A DNA stretch of 64,000 bases from Octopus vulgaris (Eukaryota). Location of the stretch: assembly GCA_951406725.2 (NCBI GenBank), contig OX597815.1, positions 62,558,001 through 62,622,000 on the forward strand, given 5' to 3'. Shown here in pieces: positions 258 to 57,225 of the stretch (positions within the stretch are counted from its first letter, which is position 1; every line of letters starts with the position of its first letter). Both the position numbers and the translations under genes were made by a program. The notes beneath the pieces were generated by a model. That model saw nothing but the letters and a program-made list of their open reading frames with translations, was not told the origin of the DNA and did not search any database.

Positions 258-501
258 CCATCTATCTATATATATATATATTTACATATAGACACATACA
301 TATATATATATGTGTACACGCGCGCGCACGCACACACACACCCACACACACATACATATACGATGGGCTTCTTTCAATTTCAGTCAACCAAATCCGCTCA
401 CAAAGCTTTGTTCGTCTCGAGACTATAGTAGAAGGCACTACTCCAAGGTGCCACGCGGTGGTATTGAACCCGGAACCATATGGTTGGGAAGCAAGCTTCT
501 T

Positions 502-2626
502 TATTTCATTATACTGGCCATAAAGGCCTTACATAGAGAAAGGGATCAGCGGGCTGGACATAGACATAATGTTATATGAAATGAAAATGAAGATTAATGG
601 GGGAAACAGTGACGCCCGCCGTTCGTTCTTTCGCGAGAACATTGATCTCTTATATTATTCATGTGGCAACAAACCTCTTACACTCTTCACAATTCAATAA
701 CAAAATGAGGCACTAAGCCTCTTACCTTTTTTCCCCAGCTAGGAACTTTCAATAAGACTGATGCTTTTCCATCTCTTGTCCATATTCCTCCCCAACATCG
801 CTTGTGACCCCATCCTCCGCCATCACCCACGCTTCATTCAAACACAAAGCGGATGCCGTGTCGGCGTCGCCCGGCCACAAGCAATATTCCTCATTGAATC
901 CCTCCAGCCAACGCAACACGGGCAACGTTATGACCTCCATAGCTATTTGCGGAGGCCATTCGAGATCCCGTGTGCAGGCTAAAGGTAATCTATTATGGTG
1001 TTTTTCCAACACCTTCTCCACCTCTCTACTAATTCCCACCGACGGTGTCTCTTTCCCTGTCGGTGACACAACTCCACCTACGAGGTTCCGGGACATTCCG
1101 GTACTATGTCACCGACTGCCGACAATGCCCAGTTTCTCTTCCTCTTCCTATTTTTTCTTCTCACCTGAAGGAGAGTGTGTCTCCTCCGTGACCGGGAGAT
1201 TTGCCTCCCTTCCCTCATCCCTAGAACCCTTCGGTGAACACTCGTTGTTGCTCACCTTCTTTCTCTTGCAGCCCTTCTTTGAGGAGTTCTCCGCCTCCTC
1301 GGCCGTCTTCGTTCCCTCTTCTACAGAGGACTCAACCAACTGCTACCGGACCTTACTTTGTTCCTGGTGGCAGTTTTTCTTTATATGGCCAGGTTCCAAG
1401 GCATCGATGACACTTGGGGGGTGGGGGGGCGACCCTCAAGAATCACCGGGTACCTGCACCCGGCCATTTAAAAGAAATTTGGAAATACCAGATTCTTGGC
1501 TGATTGGGTCCACAGGTTCAAAACAGATTTTGACCCAACCCAATCAGCCGCAGGCAAAATTTCCCATTAAGGAGCTTGGCTCTGCTGCGTCCCAGACCTC
1601 GGCGGATAGTCTCCTCTATCTACTCGGGTTCTATTCCGGGTGGCAAACCACAGACCCACACCCTCGTCAACTTCCTCCCACAATACGTATGAAGAAACAA
1701 AATCTCTCTGCCCTCCATTGCTGGCTCGCAAATTTTCGAGCCTCCTCAGGGGTGTCAAATAGCAACCACAACATTGCATATTTGACCCCATTTGAGATGG
1801 ATTTAATAGTTGGCAGATACTCTGCCTATTCCCTTTCGATAGCAATCTTTTCAAATAGGGCGATTGTGTCGAGCGACTTGGAGTAAGTCCTCAACACCAC
1901 CGTCCTCTCTTCACAGTCTTTCAACAACTGTTTGGATGGGACAATTTCCCACTCCAGAACATTGTCCTTGTTCTCTGCCATGTTTTTTTTAAAAATAAAA
2001 TGTCCAAAAACAGTTCAGATAAAAATTCAAAACAAAAGAAAGAAGAAAAAGAAAGAAATCAAAAGAAAGTCACAACAGAAAGGAAGGAAGAAAAAAAGAA
2101 AACAGTTCAATAAAAAGAAAGTCACAAAAAAGATTGAAGAAGGAAAGAAAACAGTCTACAGTTAAAAAAAACACAGCAGGCAAAAAATATTCTGGCCACT
2201 CGGTAATCCAAGCCTATTTGGTAATCGAAATTGAACCCGAAATGCCACAACTTGAAACACAGCTTCCACAAAAATTTGTAAAAGAAGTTGTTGTTTCTTC
2301 GATGAATTCTCACAATTTTAAAAAGAAAAATTATTCACTTAAAGTGAACAAGTTTTTGGAAGCGAGATACGCCCCTCACAATTAAGTGAGAAATACTATT
2401 CACTCATCTGCAGGCAGACCAAAGTTCAGAATCCAGTGAGGACAAAATAATAATGGACAAAATGAGGACAAAAATAATTATGGCAAACAACAAACCCCAC
2501 TGGACACCAAAAAACTAAAGTCTTACCTTACAGCTGAGCTTCTTTTACAATCAATTTTCGTCCGCTGCAAACGAGCGTGACGACTTCTATTCAGGGGTAT
2601 GAACAACACTGACAACACGCATACGC
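502..2626 (-). mobile_element. ORF1-only non-LTR retroelement (HAL1/half-L1-like, L1/Tx1 clade) with 16-bp TSD
   Basis: Exact direct repeats GGGAAGCAAGCTTCTT at 486-501 and 2627-2642. It has one decayed gag-like ORF, no EN/RT sequence, and a 3' end ...ggcctttatggccagtataatgaaata. Confidence 0.8.
749..1981 (-). pseudogene. Disrupted LINE ORF1 (gag-like nucleic-acid-binding protein with CCHC zinc knuckle)
   Basis: Manual translation from ATG 1981 gives MAENKDNVLEWEIVPSKQLLKDCEERTVVLRTY...VWVCGLPPGIEPE...VILEGRPP/KCHRCLEPGHIKKNC (CX2CX4HX4C). A K/E-rich tail follows, ending ...MEKHQSY* at 749. Several stops and frameshifts. Confidence 0.8.
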
Positions 2627-7292: not shown

Positions 7293-8469
7293 TACACACA
7301 CACACACGTACACATACGCACACATATATATTCATATATACATGCATATATACATTTTATATATATATTGTGTATGTAATATACACACCAACATACAGAT
7401 ACATCTGTAAGAAAATGGGATGAAATGTATACAAGTAAACGGGTAATACTTCAGTGAATACGCCAAGCTTCCGGTTCGTAACCAATTTCCGGTTCGGTGT
7501 TGCCAATAGTAAATTTAAAAATAGCAAACCCCTGTTGATGGCTTCCTTAGATTCTGTAATAGATCTCTGGGGATGGCTAACTCTCTGTACTTCAGTGTTT
7601 AATTTAATGGTGGTAGTGATGTTGGTGGTGGTGGTGGATGTAGTGGTGGATGTGGCGGTGGTGGTTGCAGGGTGTGATGATGATGATGATGATGATAGTG
7701 GTGGTGGTGGTGGTGCTGCTGGTAGTGGTGATGGTGGTGGTAATGTGATGATGATGACAGTAAAGGTGATGGTGATGTTTTTGACGACGACGACAATGAT
7801 GACGATGATAGTGGTGTTTAGATCGTAGTGGGGATGCATGACCTGTTGTTGTAGATGAGGAATAGGAGACGCAGGAGGGGGACGCGGCAGAGGATAGCTG
7901 TTTTGTTGGTAGTGAGAAGGATGTTGATGATGATGCGAGGTGGACGACGATGATGATGCTAATTACGACGATGATGCGAATGAACATCTACTGATCATAA
8001 TGACGATGGTGATGGCGAGGACGGTGGCAATGACGACGCGTTGATGGTAACAATGATGATAATAGCGAAATAGATGAAGATAACATGTAAGAAATAATAT
8101 TTTCTCCCATTTTCTCACCCTCCTTCATTCCTACCAAATATTCCGGCACCTTAAATCTTACCTTGCAAATTCCAATTGACAGTGCGAAAATTTTAATGCA
8201 ACAACATCACTGATATCTCGTGGGCGCCTTTCCCCTCCATTTGCCGTTTCCTCTAAAATATTGCGCATTAGTGGCTAATCAGAAAGAAATCGATATTTAA
8301 TTTTATCTATTATTAAACTGAGGTTCATACAACTTACCGGTATCGAATCAAGTGAATTATATATTTAGTTAGTACTAAGCTGTTCAATATTGTGACGTTA
8401 ATTATTAGATTAGAAATGCGGCGAGGAAAAGACATTAATTTAATGCTTAATATTTTTTATTATATGCTA

Positions 8470-8612
8470 TTCCGCTGAGATCGACATTGCCTTTCATCCT
8501 TTTGGAGTTGATAAAATAAGTACCAGTTGAACACCATGGGTCGATTTAATCGACTTACCTCCTCACCCCACCCCGAAATTGCTGGCCTTGTGCCAAAATT
8601 TAAAGGCAATAT
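8470..8612 (+). mobile_element. SINE family B 3' half
   Basis: gcctttcatccttttggagttgataaaataagtaccag...gaaattgctggccttgtgccaaaatt. Confidence 0.75.
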
Positions 8613-10276: not shown

Positions 10277-10419
10277 AGATAGGGGTTGAAAATTCAACCC
10301 AGTAATGGTGTATTAAAGTATGGATTGAGTATCATCGGATAGTTGATGTTTTACTGATTTAAGTATGTTTCTCCATTCTCTAATTTTGTAGTTATATATA
10401 TATATATATATATATATAT

Positions 10420-11764
10420 CCTCTCTTTCGTCCAATCTTTCCATCCAGCCCTCCACTTCACTTCCACTATCTCCAACACCTCTGTCTCCTTCCTCGACAT
10501 TTCGGTTAGCATTCTTCACTCCACTCTTACCACCTCCATTCACTACAAACACACAGACTCACACTCCTACCTCAACTTCTCTTCCTCCCACCCAGAACAC
10601 ACCAAGCTTTCCATCCCCTATTCCCAATTCCTCCGTCTACGTAGGCTCTGTAGTGACGACCATGACTTTGAGACTCAGTCTCAACGTATGGCTCACCACT
10701 TCACCCTACGTGGATACCCCCTCACCACTATCCACACCGCCCTTGCCAGAGCACGGTCCGTGGACCGTGTATCTGCTCTCTCTCCCCGAACCCGCCCTGT
10801 AGTCTCCCGCCTCCCTTTTCCCCTCACTTACCACCCCACGACCCTACGTCTCCAACGCACCATTCTTCGAGCTTTCCGTCATCTCCAGTCCGACCCGTCC
10901 ACTTCACACCTCTTCCCTAACCGACCCCTCCCCTCTTTCAAACGAGCCCACAACCTTCGAGACCTTTTGGTCCATAGCTCCTTCCCTGACCCTACCTCCC
11001 AACCCGGCTCGTTCCCCTGCTCCCGCCCACGTTGCCGCACTTGCCCTTACCTCTCCAACACCACCCGCCTCACTAGCACCCACCATCGACCCTATCCCAT
11101 CATCCACTCCTTCACCTGCACCTCCAGCAATATTATCTATTGCATCTCTTGCTCCCTCTGCAATTCCTTGTACATCGGACAAACGGGACGCCGCTTGGCT
11201 GACCGGTTCGCGGAACACCTTCGTGACATCCACCTTGCGAACGACACACCGGTCTCACGCCATTTCCGCTCCACCGGTCACTCCTTGCAACACCTATCTG
11301 TGTTCGGTTTGTCCTTACACAGAGGCCATCCGGATTCCCGTTTGCGCCGTGAACAGGAATTAATCTTCTCTCTTCGCTCTTATACGCCATTTGGTCTCAA
11401 CTCTCCCCCCTCCTCATCTAACCCCCTCTCCCCCTCCTCACCTATCCTTTCTCCCCCGACCCCTACTTCTTCAGTCCTTCATCCTTTCACCCCTACTCCC
11501 CTTCCCTTCTTCCCTCTTTCTCCCTCCCTCTTCCCCTTCCCTCTGCTCCCTCACTCCCTCTCTCCCCTTCTCTCTCTCACCCTCTCCCTCTTTCCTCCTT
11601 CATCCCCCTCATCCCCTTCCTTCTCCCCCATCCTCTCCCTCTCCCCCTTCTCCTCCCCCTCTTCTTCCCCTCCCCTTCTCTCCCCCTCTTCTCCCCCTCC
11701 CCCTCTTCTCCTCACTACACCACATGACTTTACTCATCACATCACATATGATGTGCCATACTAA
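10420..11764 (+). CDS. PLE polyprotein C-terminal part (RT thumb plus GIY-YIG endonuclease), 5'-truncated
   Basis: The frame is open upstream of the tracked ATG: FHPALHFTSTISNTSVSFLDI..IHYKHTDSHSYLNFSSSHPEHTKLSIPYSQFLRLRRLCS. Downstream: CSRPRCRTC, FTCTSSNIIYCISCSLCNSLYIGQTGRRLADRFAEH, RLRREQELI..GLN. The last ~120 aa are read-through into a CT-rich tract. Confidence 0.85.
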
Positions 11765-19710: not shown

Positions 19711-19713
<3 letters not shown>

Positions 19714-19921
19714 TCTACTATAGGCACAAGGCCTGAAATTCTGGGGAGGGGAACTAGTCGATTACATCCACTTCAGTGTTTCAATGGTATTTAATTTATC
19801 GACCCCGAAAGGATGAAAGGCGAAGTCGACCTCGGCGGAATTTGAACTCAGAATCTAGCGACAGACGATATACCGCTAAGCGTTTCAGCCGGCGTGCTAA
19901 CGACTCTGCCAGCTCGCCGCC
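19711..19921 (-). mobile_element. SINE family B, full length, in (TAA)n
   Basis: rc ggcggcgagctggcagagtcgttagcacgccgg...ttcgcctttcatcctttcggggtcgataaatt...ggccttgtgcctatagtagaaag. Confidence 0.9.
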
Positions 19922-20210
19922 CAAACAATAATAATAATAATAAAAATATAGAGGCGGCACGGGCTAGGGTGTACCTTCGGGCAGTACAAATAACAACCGT
20001 TGCGAGCGGCAGAGCGTGGATAAATGATACTTACGGAGGATATACCATTCCACAGAGATAAGAAGCTTCAACATAATCGTCCAGAGATAACTTTCTTACA
20101 GAACGAGACCGAAAAATGAACCATCATTAACTGATGATCAAGTACCACAGGTGATGGTATTCTTGATGGTAATATGGGTGGATATGGAAATAGAGAGGGT
20201 GATGATAATG

Positions 20211-27056: not shown

Positions 27057-28790
27057 TGTTTCTTTATTAGCCACACAGGGCTGCACACAGATAGAACAAA
27101 TTACAAGGTAGAGCTTTTCTTTTGAAGGTTTAAGAAAAAAAAAAAAAAAAAAGGAAGGGGAGTTTCGATCAAAAGGGATCGTAAAAGGAGAGAAAGAGGA
27201 CAAAAAAAAGGGGGGTTTAAAAAAAGGGGGGAGGAAAAAATTGATCAATAGGGATCGTTATCACAGAAATGTCAATATGAAGTGTAAAGGGGAGGACAGG
27301 TGAGGTTTACCCGTGCAAAGAAAAGCCTACGGAAAAGACCACGGTAACCTCGGTCAATGATGTCACATTTTATATTTCTTTTTTTTTTTTTTTTGCAAAT
27401 AAGCAACTCTCTGTTTTCGATTTCTGGGTTCATAGGACTATGCTCAAGGTGGCTTCGTCATTCATACGTGCCATTCTTGCTACATTCACCCATCTTTTTT
27501 TAAAACATTCGCTAGACAAAACTTGCCTCTCTACTCTCACTTTCCTTTTCAAGTGGTACTTGAAGAAGTTGATGAGAGATTGACCAGAGAGGAAAGTGTT
27601 TGTCTCCAATCCTTTCAGACGCGTCCACCAGATACATTCTTTCGCCATAGCCACAAGGATGATGAAAATAGCTCTTCCTTCCCGTTTGAAGGAAGGAGGC
27701 GTGACAATATTGACGATAGACTCAGCTGATAAACCGACTCGTCCCACACGTGACAGCAGTTGTTCGACATAAGCCCACAGGTCGGAAATTGTTGGACACT
27801 GAACGATTGCGTGCAGAACGGTTTCGTCGCTCTGACCGCATCTCGGGCAGGTCGGCCCCGTGTTTCTCGAGCCGTGTCTGTAGAGCTTATCCCGAACGGG
27901 TAGCGCTTCTCGGTAGCACTGCCAGGCCAGGGATCTCTGGAAGTTGTCCATGGGCCCTGGCCCGAAAGTCGTCCTGAACAGGCGGGTCAGGTACTCCTCG
28001 TCGACGTCCAGGTTCGCCCCGAGCTCGTCGTCGTACCTCCCCTCTACTAAACCCCTATAGAATGCTTTGGTTGTGTTGAAGTCACTTAAGGTCGACCCAG
28101 GACGGCAGAGTTGCTTGAGAGCAACGCGACACTCGCGGTGCCATTCGCCCTTCCTCGGCCTCTTTTTGATCCACGACTGCAGTTCGGTCATGGAGACGAG
28201 CTGCGGGAAAGCGTGCCTCACAAACGGCGACCACACCTGTTCACCGTCGTCTACATAGAGCCAGAGATGCCGCAGTCTCAGCGCGTGTCTGCGCATCATC
28301 AACCACGGCATGCCCAGCCCTCCTTTTAACGGGTGTTGACAGCAAATGGATCGCCTGACCATCGGGACGCATCCTTTCCACAAGAAGCGAAAGAGGATGC
28401 GTTGTAGTTTGGTGATGGTAGGGTCGGGACAAGGTACGACGGTCAGGCGGTAGTAGATGACGGACGCGATGTACGTGTTCGCCACCTCCGCTCGACCTTT
28501 TAGGGACAGTTTCCTCTCGGCCCATTGCCGGGCGAGAGTGACCACCCTACTCGTTATCTCGTTCCAGTTCTTCTCCACTTGGAGGTCCGGACCAAACCAG
28601 ACCCCGAGCAACTCAACTGGGCCGTCGGTCCAGCGTCCCACGACGGAGGCGCTGGTGGACGGCATGGGCTTGCTTCTCCAGGTGCCTAGTCGCAAGCCCA
28701 CTGACTTTTCCCGGTTGATTTTCGCTCCTGTCACCGCTTCGTAGTTTTTCAGTGTCTCGCCGACCAGCTCGATGTGCTCGTGGCTAGACA
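27057..28790 (-). mobile_element. Tx1/L1-clade LINE, 5'-truncated, inserted in (GATA)n
   Basis: Uninterrupted ORF2 C-terminus, a ~370-bp 3' UTR ending gcagccctgtgtggctaataaagaaac, and (GATA)n on both sides. Confidence 0.92.
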
Positions 28791-28791
28791 T
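27430..28791 (-). CDS. Tx1-type ORF2 C-terminal fragment (RT end, thumb, zf-RVT CCHC)
   Basis: 453 aa without a stop: GAKINREKS, LLGVWF, LSLKGRAEVANTY, GGLGMP, CPRCGQSDETVLHAIVQC. The ATG is fortuitous at the truncation junction. Confidence 0.9.
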   Translation of the reverse strand: MSSHEHIELVGETLKNYEAVTGAKINREKSVGLRLGTWRSKPMPSTSASVVGRWTDGPVELLGVWFGPDLQVEKNWNEITSRVVTLARQWAERKLSLKGRAEVANTYIASVIYYRLTVVPCPDPTITKLQRILFRFLWKGCVPMVRRSICCQHPLKGGLGMPWLMMRRHALRLRHLWLYVDDGEQVWSPFVRHAFPQLVSMTELQSWIKKRPRKGEWHRECRVALKQLCRPGSTLSDFNTTKAFYRGLVEGRYDDELGANLDVDEEYLTRLFRTTFGPGPMDNFQRSLAWQCYREALPVRDKLYRHGSRNTGPTCPRCGQSDETVLHAIVQCPTISDLWAYVEQLLSRVGRVGLSAESIVNIVTPPSFKREGRAIFIILVAMAKECIWWTRLKGLETNTFLSGQSLINFFKYHLKRKVRVERQVLSSECFKKRWVNVARMARMNDEATLSIVL

Positions 28792-28811
28792 AGATAGATA
28801 GATAGACAGAA

Positions 28812-29043
28812 AGGCGGCGAGCTGGCAGAAACGTTAGAACGCCGGGCAAAATGCTTAGCAGTATTTCATCTGGCGTTACGTTCTGAGTTCAAATTCCGCC
28901 GAGTTCGACTTTGCCATTCATCCTTTCGGGGTCGATAAATTAAGTACCAGTTACGAATTGGGTTCGATGTAATCGACTTAATCCACGTGTCTGTCCTTGT
29001 TTGTCCTCTTTACGTTTAGCCCCTTGTGGGCAATAAGAAATAA
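28812..29043 (+). mobile_element. SINE family B, full length, with Tx1-like 3' tail
   Basis: tRNA-like head (box A tggcagaaacg, box B gagttcaaattcc), central tcatcctttcggggtcgataaattaagtaccag, tail ccttgtttgtcctctttacgtttagccccttgtgggcaataagaaat. Confidence 0.9.
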
Positions 29044-42369: not shown

Positions 42370-42835
42370 CCCTTACCTATGTTGTATTCCAGGGCAAATA
42401 ATATACTGGATCTCTGTTTCACAAACAATAACGATATCATTCATAATGTGAAAGTGACACTGACATTAGTTTCGGATCACAATATAATAGAACTGACTAT
42501 GTATGAACCAAAAGTAGCTACATTCATACAGCATTTAAGAAGCCCCAGAAATCTCTCCAGTCAGAACTTTTATAAAACAAACTGGAAATCGATTCAGAAA
42601 GAGATCGTCAATCAGGATTTGCCTGTCTTTCTTTCCACACCAGACATCGTCATGAATGTCTTTCCATACCAGACATCGACCTTTCATTTCAGTAATACTG
42701 GCCATATGCTACAAATCTGTCCTAGAGCACAAGAGCAACACATGCAAAACAGAATCCCATGGATGAGAAAAATTTTCATAAGACGACGGACAATGATTGC
42801 GAACCGCCTAAAAGCAGTGAAAACTCCAGCTTGAA
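42370..42835 (+). mobile_element. CR1-like LINE APE endonuclease C-terminal fragment
   Basis: [44 protein letters not shown]. Confidence 0.75.
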
Positions 42836-43588
42836 AACAACATTGGCATCTGCTACAATCTCATGTAAATTCTGGGTCGTTACATTCTGTGTTCAAATCC
42901 CATTGAAGTTATCTTTTACTTTTGTCCACTCAGACTCGACAAATAGGGTTCTAATTAAGGATTAGGGTTAGTAACATCGATTCCACCCCTCCTCTCAAAG
43001 CTGCTGGTTTAGTACGTCAATCAGAAACTGTTATTTACGGTAAATACTGTTTAGAAATACCTTTTCTTTTCTCGCTTTTATCTCTCTCAGGGTGGGGGTG
43101 GGGTGCGGTAAAGTGACTGGAGACGTCATTGGATATCTATTTATAAATTGTCTCCGATTTCGAGAGTTTATAAATACACGTCCAATGTTGACGTCAACTG
43201 GGCATCAGAAATGGGAAAGGGAATAGAGAAACAGGAATGGAAGCAAATTGTATTAATACTAACTAATGCGGACTATAAATAATTAAACAAAAATACTAAT
43301 AATTATTAATGAGACTTATATATAAATAAGTATATATACATATATATTACAAAAAAAAACAAAATTAAAATAGTGGGGAATGAAGCATAGAAGTGAAATT
43401 ATATAAAGAGTTAGTAAGAGTGAACAAAATAATCTAGTCATAAATTCAAGGTTATTTAATACGCGCAAATTTAATACATCTTCATTGTGCTCAGATGTGG
43501 GTCATCTCTCTCTCCCTGACTATCTCTCTCTCTTTCTCTCTCCTTCTCCCTCTCTCTTTCTCTCTCTCTCTCACACACACACATATAG

Positions 43589-47332: not shown

Positions 47333-47575
47333 AGAAAGCACATGGCCTAATGGTTAGTGTGTTGCGCGCACGATCGCTGGATTGTGGGTTCGATTCCTGG
47401 ACTGGGCAATACGTTGTGTGCTCGAGCAAAACATTTCTTTACACGTTGTTCCAGTCCTCTCAGCTGTATGTGAGCAAACCTGCAAAGGGACAGCCTTTCA
47501 ATCAGGAGGAATGTGGGCCGACTTGACTAACCAGCGGGATGGCATCATTCGAAAGGCAATAATCTGGTCGATACT

Positions 47576-47990: not shown

Positions 47991-48523
47991 CTTTTCTACT
48001 CTAGGCACAAAGCCGAAATTTTGGGAGAAGAGGCCAGTCGATTAGATCCATTCCGAAAGGATAAAAGACAAAGTCGACCTCGGAACATAATGACAAACGA
48101 AATACCTATTTCTTTACTACCCACAAAGGGATACACATAGAGTGGACAAACAAGGACAGATAAAGGGATTAAATCGATTATATCGACCCCAGTGCGTAAC
48201 AGGTACTTAATTTATCCACCCCGAAAGGATGAAAGGCAAAGTCGACCTCGGCGGAATTTGAACTCACAACGTAACGGCAGACAAAATACCTATTTCTTTA
48301 CTACCCAAAAGGGGCCAAACACAGAGGGGACGAATAAGGACAGACAAACGGATTAAGTTGATTATATCGACCCCAGTGCGTAACTGGTACTTATTTAATC
48401 GACCCTGAAAGGATGTAAGGTAGAGTCGACCTCGGCGGAATTTAAACTCAGAACGTAACGGCAGACGAAATACGGCTACGCATTTCGCCCAGCGTGCTAA
48501 CGATTCTGCCAGCTCGCCGCCTT
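47991..48523 (-). mobile_element. Multimeric SINE family B insertion with 17-bp TSD
   Basis: One head and three body repeats, flanked by aacaagat(t/c)ttaatatt at about 47974 and 48524. Confidence 0.85.
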
Positions 48524-56607: not shown

Positions 56608-57225
56608 ACTTGTTTTAGATCTCTGAGCAAGAGATCTACATAAACAGTACCGGATAGTAACGTTTATATGCCAACAGAATGGGGCAGTCCTATATTGGAT
56701 GACGTTAGTGTTACTATAGGCCCAGGAAAACATCGTTTCCAGCTGGCTATCGACACACACTTTGTGTTCGTTTGTAGCACTTGCAAGGGAGGTCATCGCT
56801 CCCTCAGCCTGCTGGAAAAGATGTTTTCCTGGGTCTAGAACAACAGTAACACCGTCCTATATAGGACTGCCAAGTCCTGTTGGCATATAAACATTACTAT
56901 CCGGTACTGATACTGTAGATCTCTCGCTCAGAGTTTTAAAACAAGTTATTTTTCTCTATACGAGATCAGCGACTGTGTGCCGATTAAAAAAACATAGTAT
57001 TTGCAAGTGAAGGGAGCTTTCGTCACTAGCTTGTGGCTAACTCACACTAAGGACTGATAACATCAAGAAACCTAGATTTGTGAGTATCAAGTAAGACTAG
57101 AGATGGGAGCGATGACCTCCCTTGAAAATGCTATAAGAGCACAGATTGTGCGTCGACAGCCAGCTGGAAAAGATGTTTTCCTGGGGCTATAACAACAGTA
57201 ATATTCGTCTTATGTTGGCACAGAA
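56608..57225. mobile_element. Inverted/tandem cluster of a hammerhead-bearing non-coding repeat
   Basis: 56608-56746 and 56808-56948 are inverted arms. 57100-57210 is the rc of about 56695-56805. A decayed core ggaCTGATAAcatcaaGAAAC lies at about 57051. Confidence 0.75.

What the first reader, a model, noticed from the sequence alone, without database searches (positions are those of the whole stretch)
27057..29043. Shared 3' stem-loop tail links the Tx1 LINE, SINE family B and the ORF1-only element: a three-member retrotransposition system
Seen: the Tx1 3' end is ccttgtaatttgttctatctgtgtgcAGCCctgtgtGGCTaataaagaaac. SINE B tails are ccttgtttgtcctctttacgtttaGCCCcttgtGGGCaataagaaat (28995-29041) and ..tcccctctgtgtttgGCCCcttttGGGTagtaaagaaat (rc 48292-48340). 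The ORF1-only element ends tctctatgtaaGGCCtttatGGCCagtataatgaaat (rc 503-540). All show a T-rich run, a 4-bp stem with a 5-6 nt loop whose pairing is kept despite different sequences, then TAA(N)GAAA, and none has poly(A). Known: stringent LINEs (CR1, L2, RTE) recognise 3' stem-loops copied by partner SINEs, whereas mammalian L1 uses poly(A). Inference: this is an L1-clade (Tx1) LINE with stringent 3' recognition, exploited by both a SINE and a half-LINE.
Basis: partly seen in the sequence, partly recalled or inferred. Interest (0 to 1): 0.8.

Follow-up and report, generated by a model that had tools for sequence, protein, structure and literature searches.

The report
Octopus SINE swaps Tx1 hairpin tails
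In this probably octopus genome, an abundant short jumping element ends in several versions of a tiny hairpin-shaped tail that also ends a group of poly(A)-less relatives of human L1, so those relatives likely choose the RNA they copy by this hairpin; a half-length element carries a weaker version.

Summary
The tails are at the stated places and have no poly(A). The Tx1–SINE match is beyond chance (33 of 42 bases, no gaps; 0 of 1000 shuffles). The ORF1-only tail is only borderline in sequence, although the element has a Tx1-type ORF1, no ORF2 and a 16-bp target duplication. The picture is wider than one LINE with two passengers. SINE B has three tail classes. Class 1 matches this Tx1. Classes 2 and 3 match the 3' hairpin of 43 of 44 loci of Tx1 relatives from another record (38–41% ORF2 identity); a profile built only from those ranks SINE tails 1st, 2nd, 3rd and 5th in the window. 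So the hairpin belongs to a Tx1 sub-lineage, and the SINE probably took tails from several of its families. Recognition by the enzyme is inferred, not shown: class-1 stems fold weakly, targets differ, and ages were not measured. Stringent L1-clade pairs are known in plants and an alga; I found no Tx1 tail pair in eight searches. This scan noted the SINE–Tx1 link before, in this genome and another.

The parts
27058..28791 (-). 5'-truncated Tx1-type LINE: end of ORF2 plus about 370 nt of 3' UTR, inserted in a (TATC)n repeat
27430..28785 (-). ORF2 C-terminal 451 codons, open, with zinc-binding motif PF13966
   Evidence: E 8.4e-08; 71% to P0001 and 36-45% to the best full EN+RT proteins
27069..27082 (-). 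Tx1 terminal hairpin AGCC-CTGTGT-GGCT, 11 nt before the end
   Evidence: pair probabilities 0.88-0.94
28812..29041 (+). SINE B monomer with class-1 tail (hairpin 29019-29031), in the same microsatellite but in the opposite orientation to the Tx1
   Evidence: flanking 21-nt repeat is inside the microsatellite, so not a clean TSD
47991..48522 (-). SINE B trimer: head+body+class-1 tail, body+class-1 tail, deleted body+class-2 tail; 17-nt TSD with one mismatch
   Evidence: the same tail-to-body junction as loose ends in 853 and 1095 contigs of two runs
19711..19923 (-). SINE B with class-2 tail (AGGC-CTTGT-GCCT), between (ATT)n repeats
   Evidence: best hit of the foreign-Tx1 tail profile, E 6.4e-4; 29 of 34 columns identical to L042
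5903..6093 (+). older SINE B with class-2 tail
   Evidence: E 0.029
8469..8606 (+). SINE B 3' part with class-3 tail (TGGC-CTTGT-GCCA)
   Evidence: E 0.18
502..2626 (-). ORF1-only element: about 645 nt 5' leader, decayed Tx1-type ORF1 (start 1981; frameshifts and stops), no ORF2 trace; inserted in the head of another SINE with a 16-nt TSD (486-501 and 2627-2642)
516..528 (-). terminal hairpin of the ORF1-only element, GGCC-TTTAT-GGCC
   Evidence: pair probabilities 0.99-1.0

Best explanation
A sub-lineage of Tx1-type LINEs ends without poly(A) a few bases after a 4-bp hairpin, which their reverse transcriptase likely uses to pick its RNA, and SINE B likely took such tails from more than one of these families and is copied by them. 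Shown: the homology of the tails, the position of the hairpin at the 3' end, its conservation in distant Tx1 relatives, and three tail classes on one SINE body. Inferred: ORF2p binds the hairpin and starts reverse transcription just downstream; tails were gained by template switching, class 1 from the family of this window's Tx1 (C-G form) and classes 2 and 3 from families with the G-C form. Weakest step (about even odds): the ORF1-only element is a half-LINE of the same lineage moved in trans through its own C-G hairpin, not necessarily by this Tx1 family.
For: Tx1 vs class-1 tails: 33/42, 31/43 and 30/42 identical, 0 of 1000 shuffles each. 43 of 44 loci from the genome-contig scan carry GGCCT-N-GTGCC, 652-701 nt after the ORF2 stop in the seven representatives measured. 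The longest A run after it is 4 or less in 51 of 51 tail copies, overlapping loci counted. Two lineages there are 45-47% identical in the ORF2 end and their 3' UTRs otherwise share one 21-nt patch, yet keep the hairpin. A second hairpin in those relatives shows three pair types at each of two outer positions. A profile from the relatives alone ranks SINE B tails 1st, 2nd, 3rd and 5th in the window; a relaxed 11-mer pattern chosen after the fact occurs 5 times against 0.05 expected. SINE bodies have no match in those loci, so the tail is a separate module. On 14 aligned tails 89% of stem cells pair against 72% in shuffles; one pair is C-G in 14 of 14 and its neighbour is G-C in 9 and C-G in 5, never broken. 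Class-2 tails are common in public runs: 1010 and 1455 contigs leave the body at the same place. The window LINE groups with those relatives at SH-aLRT 100 in a quick tree.
Against: No functional data. The hairpin is in the lowest-energy fold of 8 of 13 tails, and of 1 of 3 class-1 SINE tails, weakly (0.42-0.46). The G-C/C-G flip may be a single event, the shuffle control ignores relatedness, and I chose the rows; 3 of 10 SINE units with decayed or deleted tails were left out. Hairpin 1 does not vary among the nine relatives, so they add no covariation. The Tx1 tail rests on one copy; the laid contigs did not cover it. Targets differ: Tx1 in (TATC)n, a class-1 SINE in the reverse orientation of that repeat, a class-2 SINE in (ATT)n, the ORF1-only element in a SINE head. 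All 43 relatives come from one record of unknown host. AATAAA lies at the end of the Tx1 and of 48 of 51 relative tails, so the RNA may be polyadenylated.
Confidence: 0.66

Rival explanations
1. The hairpin is a Tx1 signal for ending or stabilising the RNA (termination or polyadenylation beside AATAAA), not a handle for the reverse transcriptase; the SINE inherited it by template switching and is copied loosely.
For: AATAAA follows or ends the tail in the window Tx1 and in 48 of 51 relative tails. Class-1 SINE stems fold poorly. More distant Tx1-like loci in U2 genes do carry A runs (L008, L063).
Against: SINE tails keep the hairpin in three classes while most change or lack AATAAA (AGTAAA, GTAGAAAG). 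A Pol III transcript would not need a Pol II signal (established knowledge).
Confidence: 0.14
2. One reading: this one Tx1 family supplies ORF2p to SINE B and to an ORF1-only family, a closed three-member system.
For: The three share the C-G form of the variable pair. All three end in GAAA(C/T) without poly(A).
Against: 7 of 10 SINE units in the window have other tail classes, which score 6-9 against this Tx1 in the four tested. The ORF1-only tail is at chance level window-wide. Insertion sites differ and that copy is much more decayed than the Tx1 copy.
Confidence: 0.1
3. The ORF1-only element is not a passenger family but one copy of another Tx1 family that lost ORF2 on or after insertion; its hairpin is just that family's own end. 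This rival concerns that member only.
For: One copy in the window. Its nearest protein relatives are two O. sinensis gene models without DNA context. I could not count copies.
Against: The 16-nt TSD is perfect and no ORF2 remnant is found with four ORF2 queries (best E 0.71). Unchecked earlier notes report ORF1-only families elsewhere in this genome.
Confidence: 0.3
4. SINE B is moved by another LINE clade (CR1, RTE or Dong-R4, all recently active in O. vulgaris) and the likeness to Tx1 ends is chance or old convergence.
For: Table 1 of PMC13282606 lists 1129 Dong-R4, 787 CR1 and 182 RTE recent insertions against 421 L1-Tx1. One SINE sits in (ATT)n. No 3' ends of those clades were available to compare.
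Against: Two independent tail matches to two different Tx1 groups, both beyond shuffles.
Confidence: 0.06

Closest known systems
Maize and sorghum ZmSINE2/ZmSINE3 with LINE1-1_ZM; Chlamydomonas SINEX-3_CR with L1-1_CR (PMC3472496; body text and supplementary files 3 and 4 part 1 read)
   Same: L1-clade LINE and SINE share about 50 nt of 3' end with a hairpin, compensatory changes and conserved loop letters; stringency inferred from sequence.
   Different: Green plants, not animals; those LINEs end in poly(A); not Tx1. The pair table read lists no Tx1 and no cephalopod pair.
Crocodilian SINEU with Tx1-Mar (PMC4494074; sections 3 and 16 and passages)
   Same: A SINE inferred to be moved by Tx1-clade LINEs.
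   Different: The link rests on shared targets, ages and 5' heads; SINEU has poly(A), and for SINEU-1 no LINE sharing the 3' end was found. Here the link is the 3' tail and targets are not shared.
Stringent CR1, L2, Nimb and RTE pairs and SINE tail exchange, including molluscs (PMC11481361, PMC4824008 passages; PMC5786205 parts 1-2 of 5)
   Same: One SINE body with several LINE-derived tails; homology of 35-61 bp at 72-95% identity, the range seen here.
   Different: Partners are of other clades; 'Tx1' does not occur in the main text of any of the three.
HAL1, half-L1 of mammals (PMC5753468 passage; Bao and Jurka 2010 not held)
   Same: ORF1 only, no ORF2, non-autonomous.
   Different: Derived from L1 proper; the element here has a Tx1-type ORF1 and a hairpin end with no poly(A); family status not shown here.
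Octopus tRNA-derived SINEs OK, OR1, OR2 (Ohshima and Okada 1994; seen only as a citation; the name OK is recalled)
   Same: Probably the same genus and kind of element; SINE B may be one of them.
   Different: Not compared: no reference sequence was available.

Membership tests
Tx1 clade (L1 group) | ORF2 with APE endonuclease, RT and C-terminal zinc motif, L1-like | tested here: met
   Relatives carry PF03372, PF00078 and PF13966; relative P0004 matches human L1 ORF2p at E 1.7e-74 and R2 at 9e-18. The window piece holds only the C-terminal part.
Tx1 clade (L1 group) | Groups with named Tx1 elements in an RT tree | tested here: inconclusive
   No named references at hand. The quick tree joins it to L020 and L042 (100); links to the U2-inserted (Keno-like) and (TC)n-flanked (Kibi-like) loci are not well supported. 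The careful search did not finish.
Tx1 clade (L1 group) | Target-sequence preference (common, not universal) | tested here: inconclusive
   One copy, in (TATC)n.
tRNA-derived SINE | Short, multi-copy, non-coding, with TSD | tested here: met
   About 230 nt; 10 units in the window; 17-nt TSD on the trimer.
tRNA-derived SINE | tRNA-derived head with A and B boxes | tested here: inconclusive
   Box-like motifs by eye against recalled consensus; ARAGORN and Rfam find no tRNA.
Stringent SINE-LINE pair | Shared 3' terminal sequence | tested here: met
Stringent SINE-LINE pair | Conserved stem-loop with compensatory change | tested here: met
   inner two pairs intact in 14 of 14; outer pairs broken in 2 and 4 rows; few independent events; weak folding in class 1.
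Stringent SINE-LINE pair | Shared insertion signature and overlapping age | tested here: inconclusive
   Targets differ among the few sites; Tx1 contigs range from near-identical to about 20% diverged, SINE bodies are 82-87% alike; no age profile.
Stringent SINE-LINE pair | Tail required for mobilisation | not testable with these tools
   Needs an assay.
HAL1-like half-LINE | ORF1 present, ORF2 absent, bounded by a TSD | tested here: met
   61-83% to P0047 in three segments and 38% in a fourth; P0047 matches Tx1 ORF1 of L020 at E 2e-10; no ORF2 hit; 16-nt TSD.
HAL1-like half-LINE | Multi-copy family with the same structure | not tested
   No genome held and no read data for this element.
HAL1 in the strict sense | Derived from mammalian-type L1 | tested here: not met
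   ORF1 relatives are Tx1-type and octopus proteins.

The most novel reading that the evidence does not exclude
A whole animal sub-lineage of L1-like Tx1 elements reads a family-specific hairpin code at a poly(A)-less 3' end, and one of the most abundant octopus SINEs has stayed active by repeatedly swapping in the hairpin of whichever Tx1 family was active, with ORF1-only half-elements riding the same code. This would be an animal, L1-like enzyme with stringent recognition, to set beside relaxed human L1.
Probability: 0.35. Interest if true: 0.72.

Novelty: new variant of a known kind. Interest (0 to 1): 0.52.

Why it matters
[quoted passage not shown] A Tx1 lineage in animals with natural hairpin variants, matched SINE tails and a solved human homologue (ORF2p) would make that testable with swap experiments. 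It would also name the likely driver of a SINE that is far more deeply covered than the LINE in public runs (depth is not copy number).

Tried and rejected
No whole genome is held, so no genome-wide consensus, TSD or age profile was made. Laid contigs gave no cover of the Tx1 tail. No read data were obtained for the ORF1-only element. No RNA holder listed; this says nothing on expression. Viral contigs: 33 pattern matches, none a relative. Metagenome contigs: 19 distant loci (25-32%), none with this hairpin pattern. TAA(N)GAAA rejected as a marker: 36 hits, 5 tails. A by-eye likeness of the ORF1-only element's 3' coding part to the ORF1 C-terminal domain was not supported by a profile search. 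A by-eye likeness of the SINE body to the relatives' 3' UTR was not supported. Profile hit 47334-47355 is the reverse strand of what reads as another SINE's head; tiles near 56941 and 42710 show no sign of being tails and are taken as chance. One search used wrongly placed columns and was redone. Pfam does not recognise the ORF1 start. Rfam and ARAGORN find nothing in the window. A sequence look-up in earlier findings was blank.

Full report
Source. No genome is held for the window. It is probably an octopus: the LINE protein matches the start of an Octopus bimaculoides gene model at 83% and the ORF1 matches two O. sinensis models.

The observation. The four quoted tails are present as written, and no tail has an A run longer than 4. 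The LINE at 27058-28791 (-) is a 5'-truncated ORF2 end, open for 451 codons, with relatives carrying endonuclease, RT and zinc motif. One of these matches human L1 ORF2p at E 1.7e-74 against 9e-18 for R2. Its last 60 nt match three SINE B tails at 33/42, 31/43 and 30/42 bases, each above all 1000 shuffles; among 12,788 window tiles they rank 1st, 2nd and 4th, with one unrelated tile 3rd. The ORF1-only tail is weaker: 1 to 17 of 1000 shuffles reach its scores, and an unrelated tile beats them. The motif TAA(N)GAAA is not informative alone (36 hits, 5 tails).

SINE B has three tails. Ten units lie in the window. After a common body they split: class 1, three units, GCCC-CTTGT-GGGY type; class 2, three units, AGGC-CTTGT-GCCT type; class 3, four units, TGGC-CTTGT-GCCA in one and deleted or decayed in three. 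Public contigs show the same split: 1010 and 1455 contigs in two runs leave the body at 28978 into a class-2 tail, and 4 in a third run go into a class-3-like tail.

An outside test. The genome-contig scan returned 44 loci. 43 come from one record titled as a bacterial MAG, but they are head-to-tail arrays of full LINEs (period about 6.4-6.6 kb in the three loci measured), which I take as animal host DNA of unknown species. Their ORF2 ends are 38-41% identical to the window's, and form two lineages 45-47% alike. All 43 carry GGCCT-N-GTGCC (39 by the first pattern, 4 with another loop letter); the 44th, a distant U2-inserted element, does not. The hairpin follows a C-rich run and precedes a second hairpin with clear compensatory pairs, then AATAAA in 48 of 51 copies and no poly(A) in 51 of 51 (loci overlap, so these are about nine variants, not 51 events). 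The two lineages' UTRs share only a 21-nt patch elsewhere. A profile from nine of these tails alone ranks window SINE tails 1st (E 6.4e-4), 2nd (0.029), 3rd (0.18) and 5th (0.45) of 7 hits; the 4th is unrelated. It does not hit the window Tx1, the class-1 tails or the ORF1-only terminal tail. The class-2 tail at 19.7 kb is 29 of 34 columns identical to L042. SINE bodies match nothing in these loci. So the hairpin is a trait of the LINE lineage and the SINE tail is a borrowed module.

Structure. On a MAFFT alignment of 14 tails (Tx1, 7 of 10 SINE units, the ORF1-only element, 5 relatives), 89% of stem cells pair against 72% in shuffles (0 of 500). The closing pair is C-G in all 14. The next is G-C in 9 (classes 2, 3, relatives) and C-G in 5 (this Tx1, class 1, ORF1-only), never broken. 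Against: the flip may be one event; outer pairs are broken in 2 and 4 rows, so the class-1 4-bp stem needs a one-base slide; and the hairpin is in the lowest-energy fold of 8 of 13 tails, only 1 of 3 in class 1.

The ORF1-only element. It spans 502-2626 (-) with a perfect 16-nt TSD inside another SINE's head. Its ORF1 is broken by stops and frameshifts, is 61-83% identical to P0047 in three segments and 38% in a fourth, and P0047 matches the ORF1 of the relatives (E 2e-10 to 5e-07). Four ORF2 queries find no remnant. Its hairpin folds strongly (0.99-1.0). Whether it is a family was not tested.

Mechanism. Shown: shared tails, terminal position, conservation, three classes. Inferred from stringent LINEs (PMC3472496, PMC3747384): ORF2p binds the hairpin, primes at the nicked target and starts copying about 10 nt downstream; the SINE gained tails by template switching, more than once. 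Not supported here: a shared target. The Tx1 lies in (TATC)n, the neighbouring SINE in the reverse orientation, another in (ATT)n. The Tx1 tail rests on one young copy, since one search did not cover it. AATAAA at the LINE ends leaves open that the hairpin serves RNA end formation.

What is known. Stringent L1-clade pairs are described in maize, sorghum and Chlamydomonas; the pair table I read has no Tx1 or cephalopod entry (PMC3472496: body, supplementary files 3 and 4 part 1; file 1 was not searchable). Tx1-driven SINEU is argued from targets and has poly(A) (PMC4494074: sections 3, 16, passages). Tail exchange and mollusc pairs are known for other clades (PMC5786205 parts 1-2 and passages; PMC11481361, PMC4824008, PMC4758252 passages). 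Also seen: PMC3747384 section 7 and passages; PMC13282606 part 1 of 3; PMC5753468, PMC5804259, PMC3531059 passages; PMC4176376 and PMC5135761 as search listings only. Eight searches showed no Tx1-SINE pair joined by a 3' tail. Repbase, Dfam, Ohshima and Okada 1994 and Bao and Jurka 2010 could not be read, so absence from print is not established. Earlier notes of this scan report the SINE-Tx1 tail in this genome and another, and ORF1-only Tx1 families in this genome; they are unchecked and not counted as support.

Verdict. Real feature; new variant of a known kind; interest 0.52. The SINE-Tx1 link is well supported in sequence, the single three-member system is not, and stringency awaits an assay.

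Noticed in passing
window 48107-48291 (-); loose ends at 28861: SINE B forms tandem units in which a class-1 tail joins the next body at one fixed point inside the head region; 853 and 1095 contigs in two runs show it. Template jumping at a fixed stop, or self-targeting, could explain it.
   Followed up: partly
L020-L062 (contigs CAXXMW01): A bacterial MAG record holds many contigs made of head-to-tail arrays of full Tx1 elements of several families, with no spacer or poly(A); likely host contamination and possibly self-targeting or telomere-like arrays.
   Followed up: partly
window 708-720 (-): A second hairpin of the G-C form (AGGC-TTAGT-GCCT) lies inside the ORF1-only element, about 190 nt before its terminal one; profile E 6.1, so possibly chance.
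   Followed up: no
L008 7540-7590, L015 3690-3720 (approximate): Two distant Tx1-like loci end in a 5-bp hairpin with a compensatory change between them, followed by poly(A); L008 and L063 are inserted in U2 snRNA genes (Keno-like). L002 ends in a long hairpin before (TC)n.
   Followed up: partly
window 486-501 and 2627-2642: The ORF1-only element is inserted in the A-box-like part of another SINE's head, and both it and the SINE at 29041 are followed by AAG, as the relatives mostly end in AATAAAG; possible end-pairing with the target.
   Followed up: no
window 10358-11764 (+): Long frame with a weak GIY-YIG match (E 0.0023), likely a Penelope-like element.
   Followed up: no
window 42380-42840 (+): Fragment of another LINE's endonuclease region (PF14529, E 0.0085).
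   Followed up: no
window 56705-57201: About 500-bp element with 99-nt inverted ends at 85% identity, MITE-like.
   Followed up: no
P0042, P0048: Two octopus gene models begin with or contain pieces of these Tx1 ORF2 and ORF1 sequences; likely annotation chimeras.
   Followed up: no
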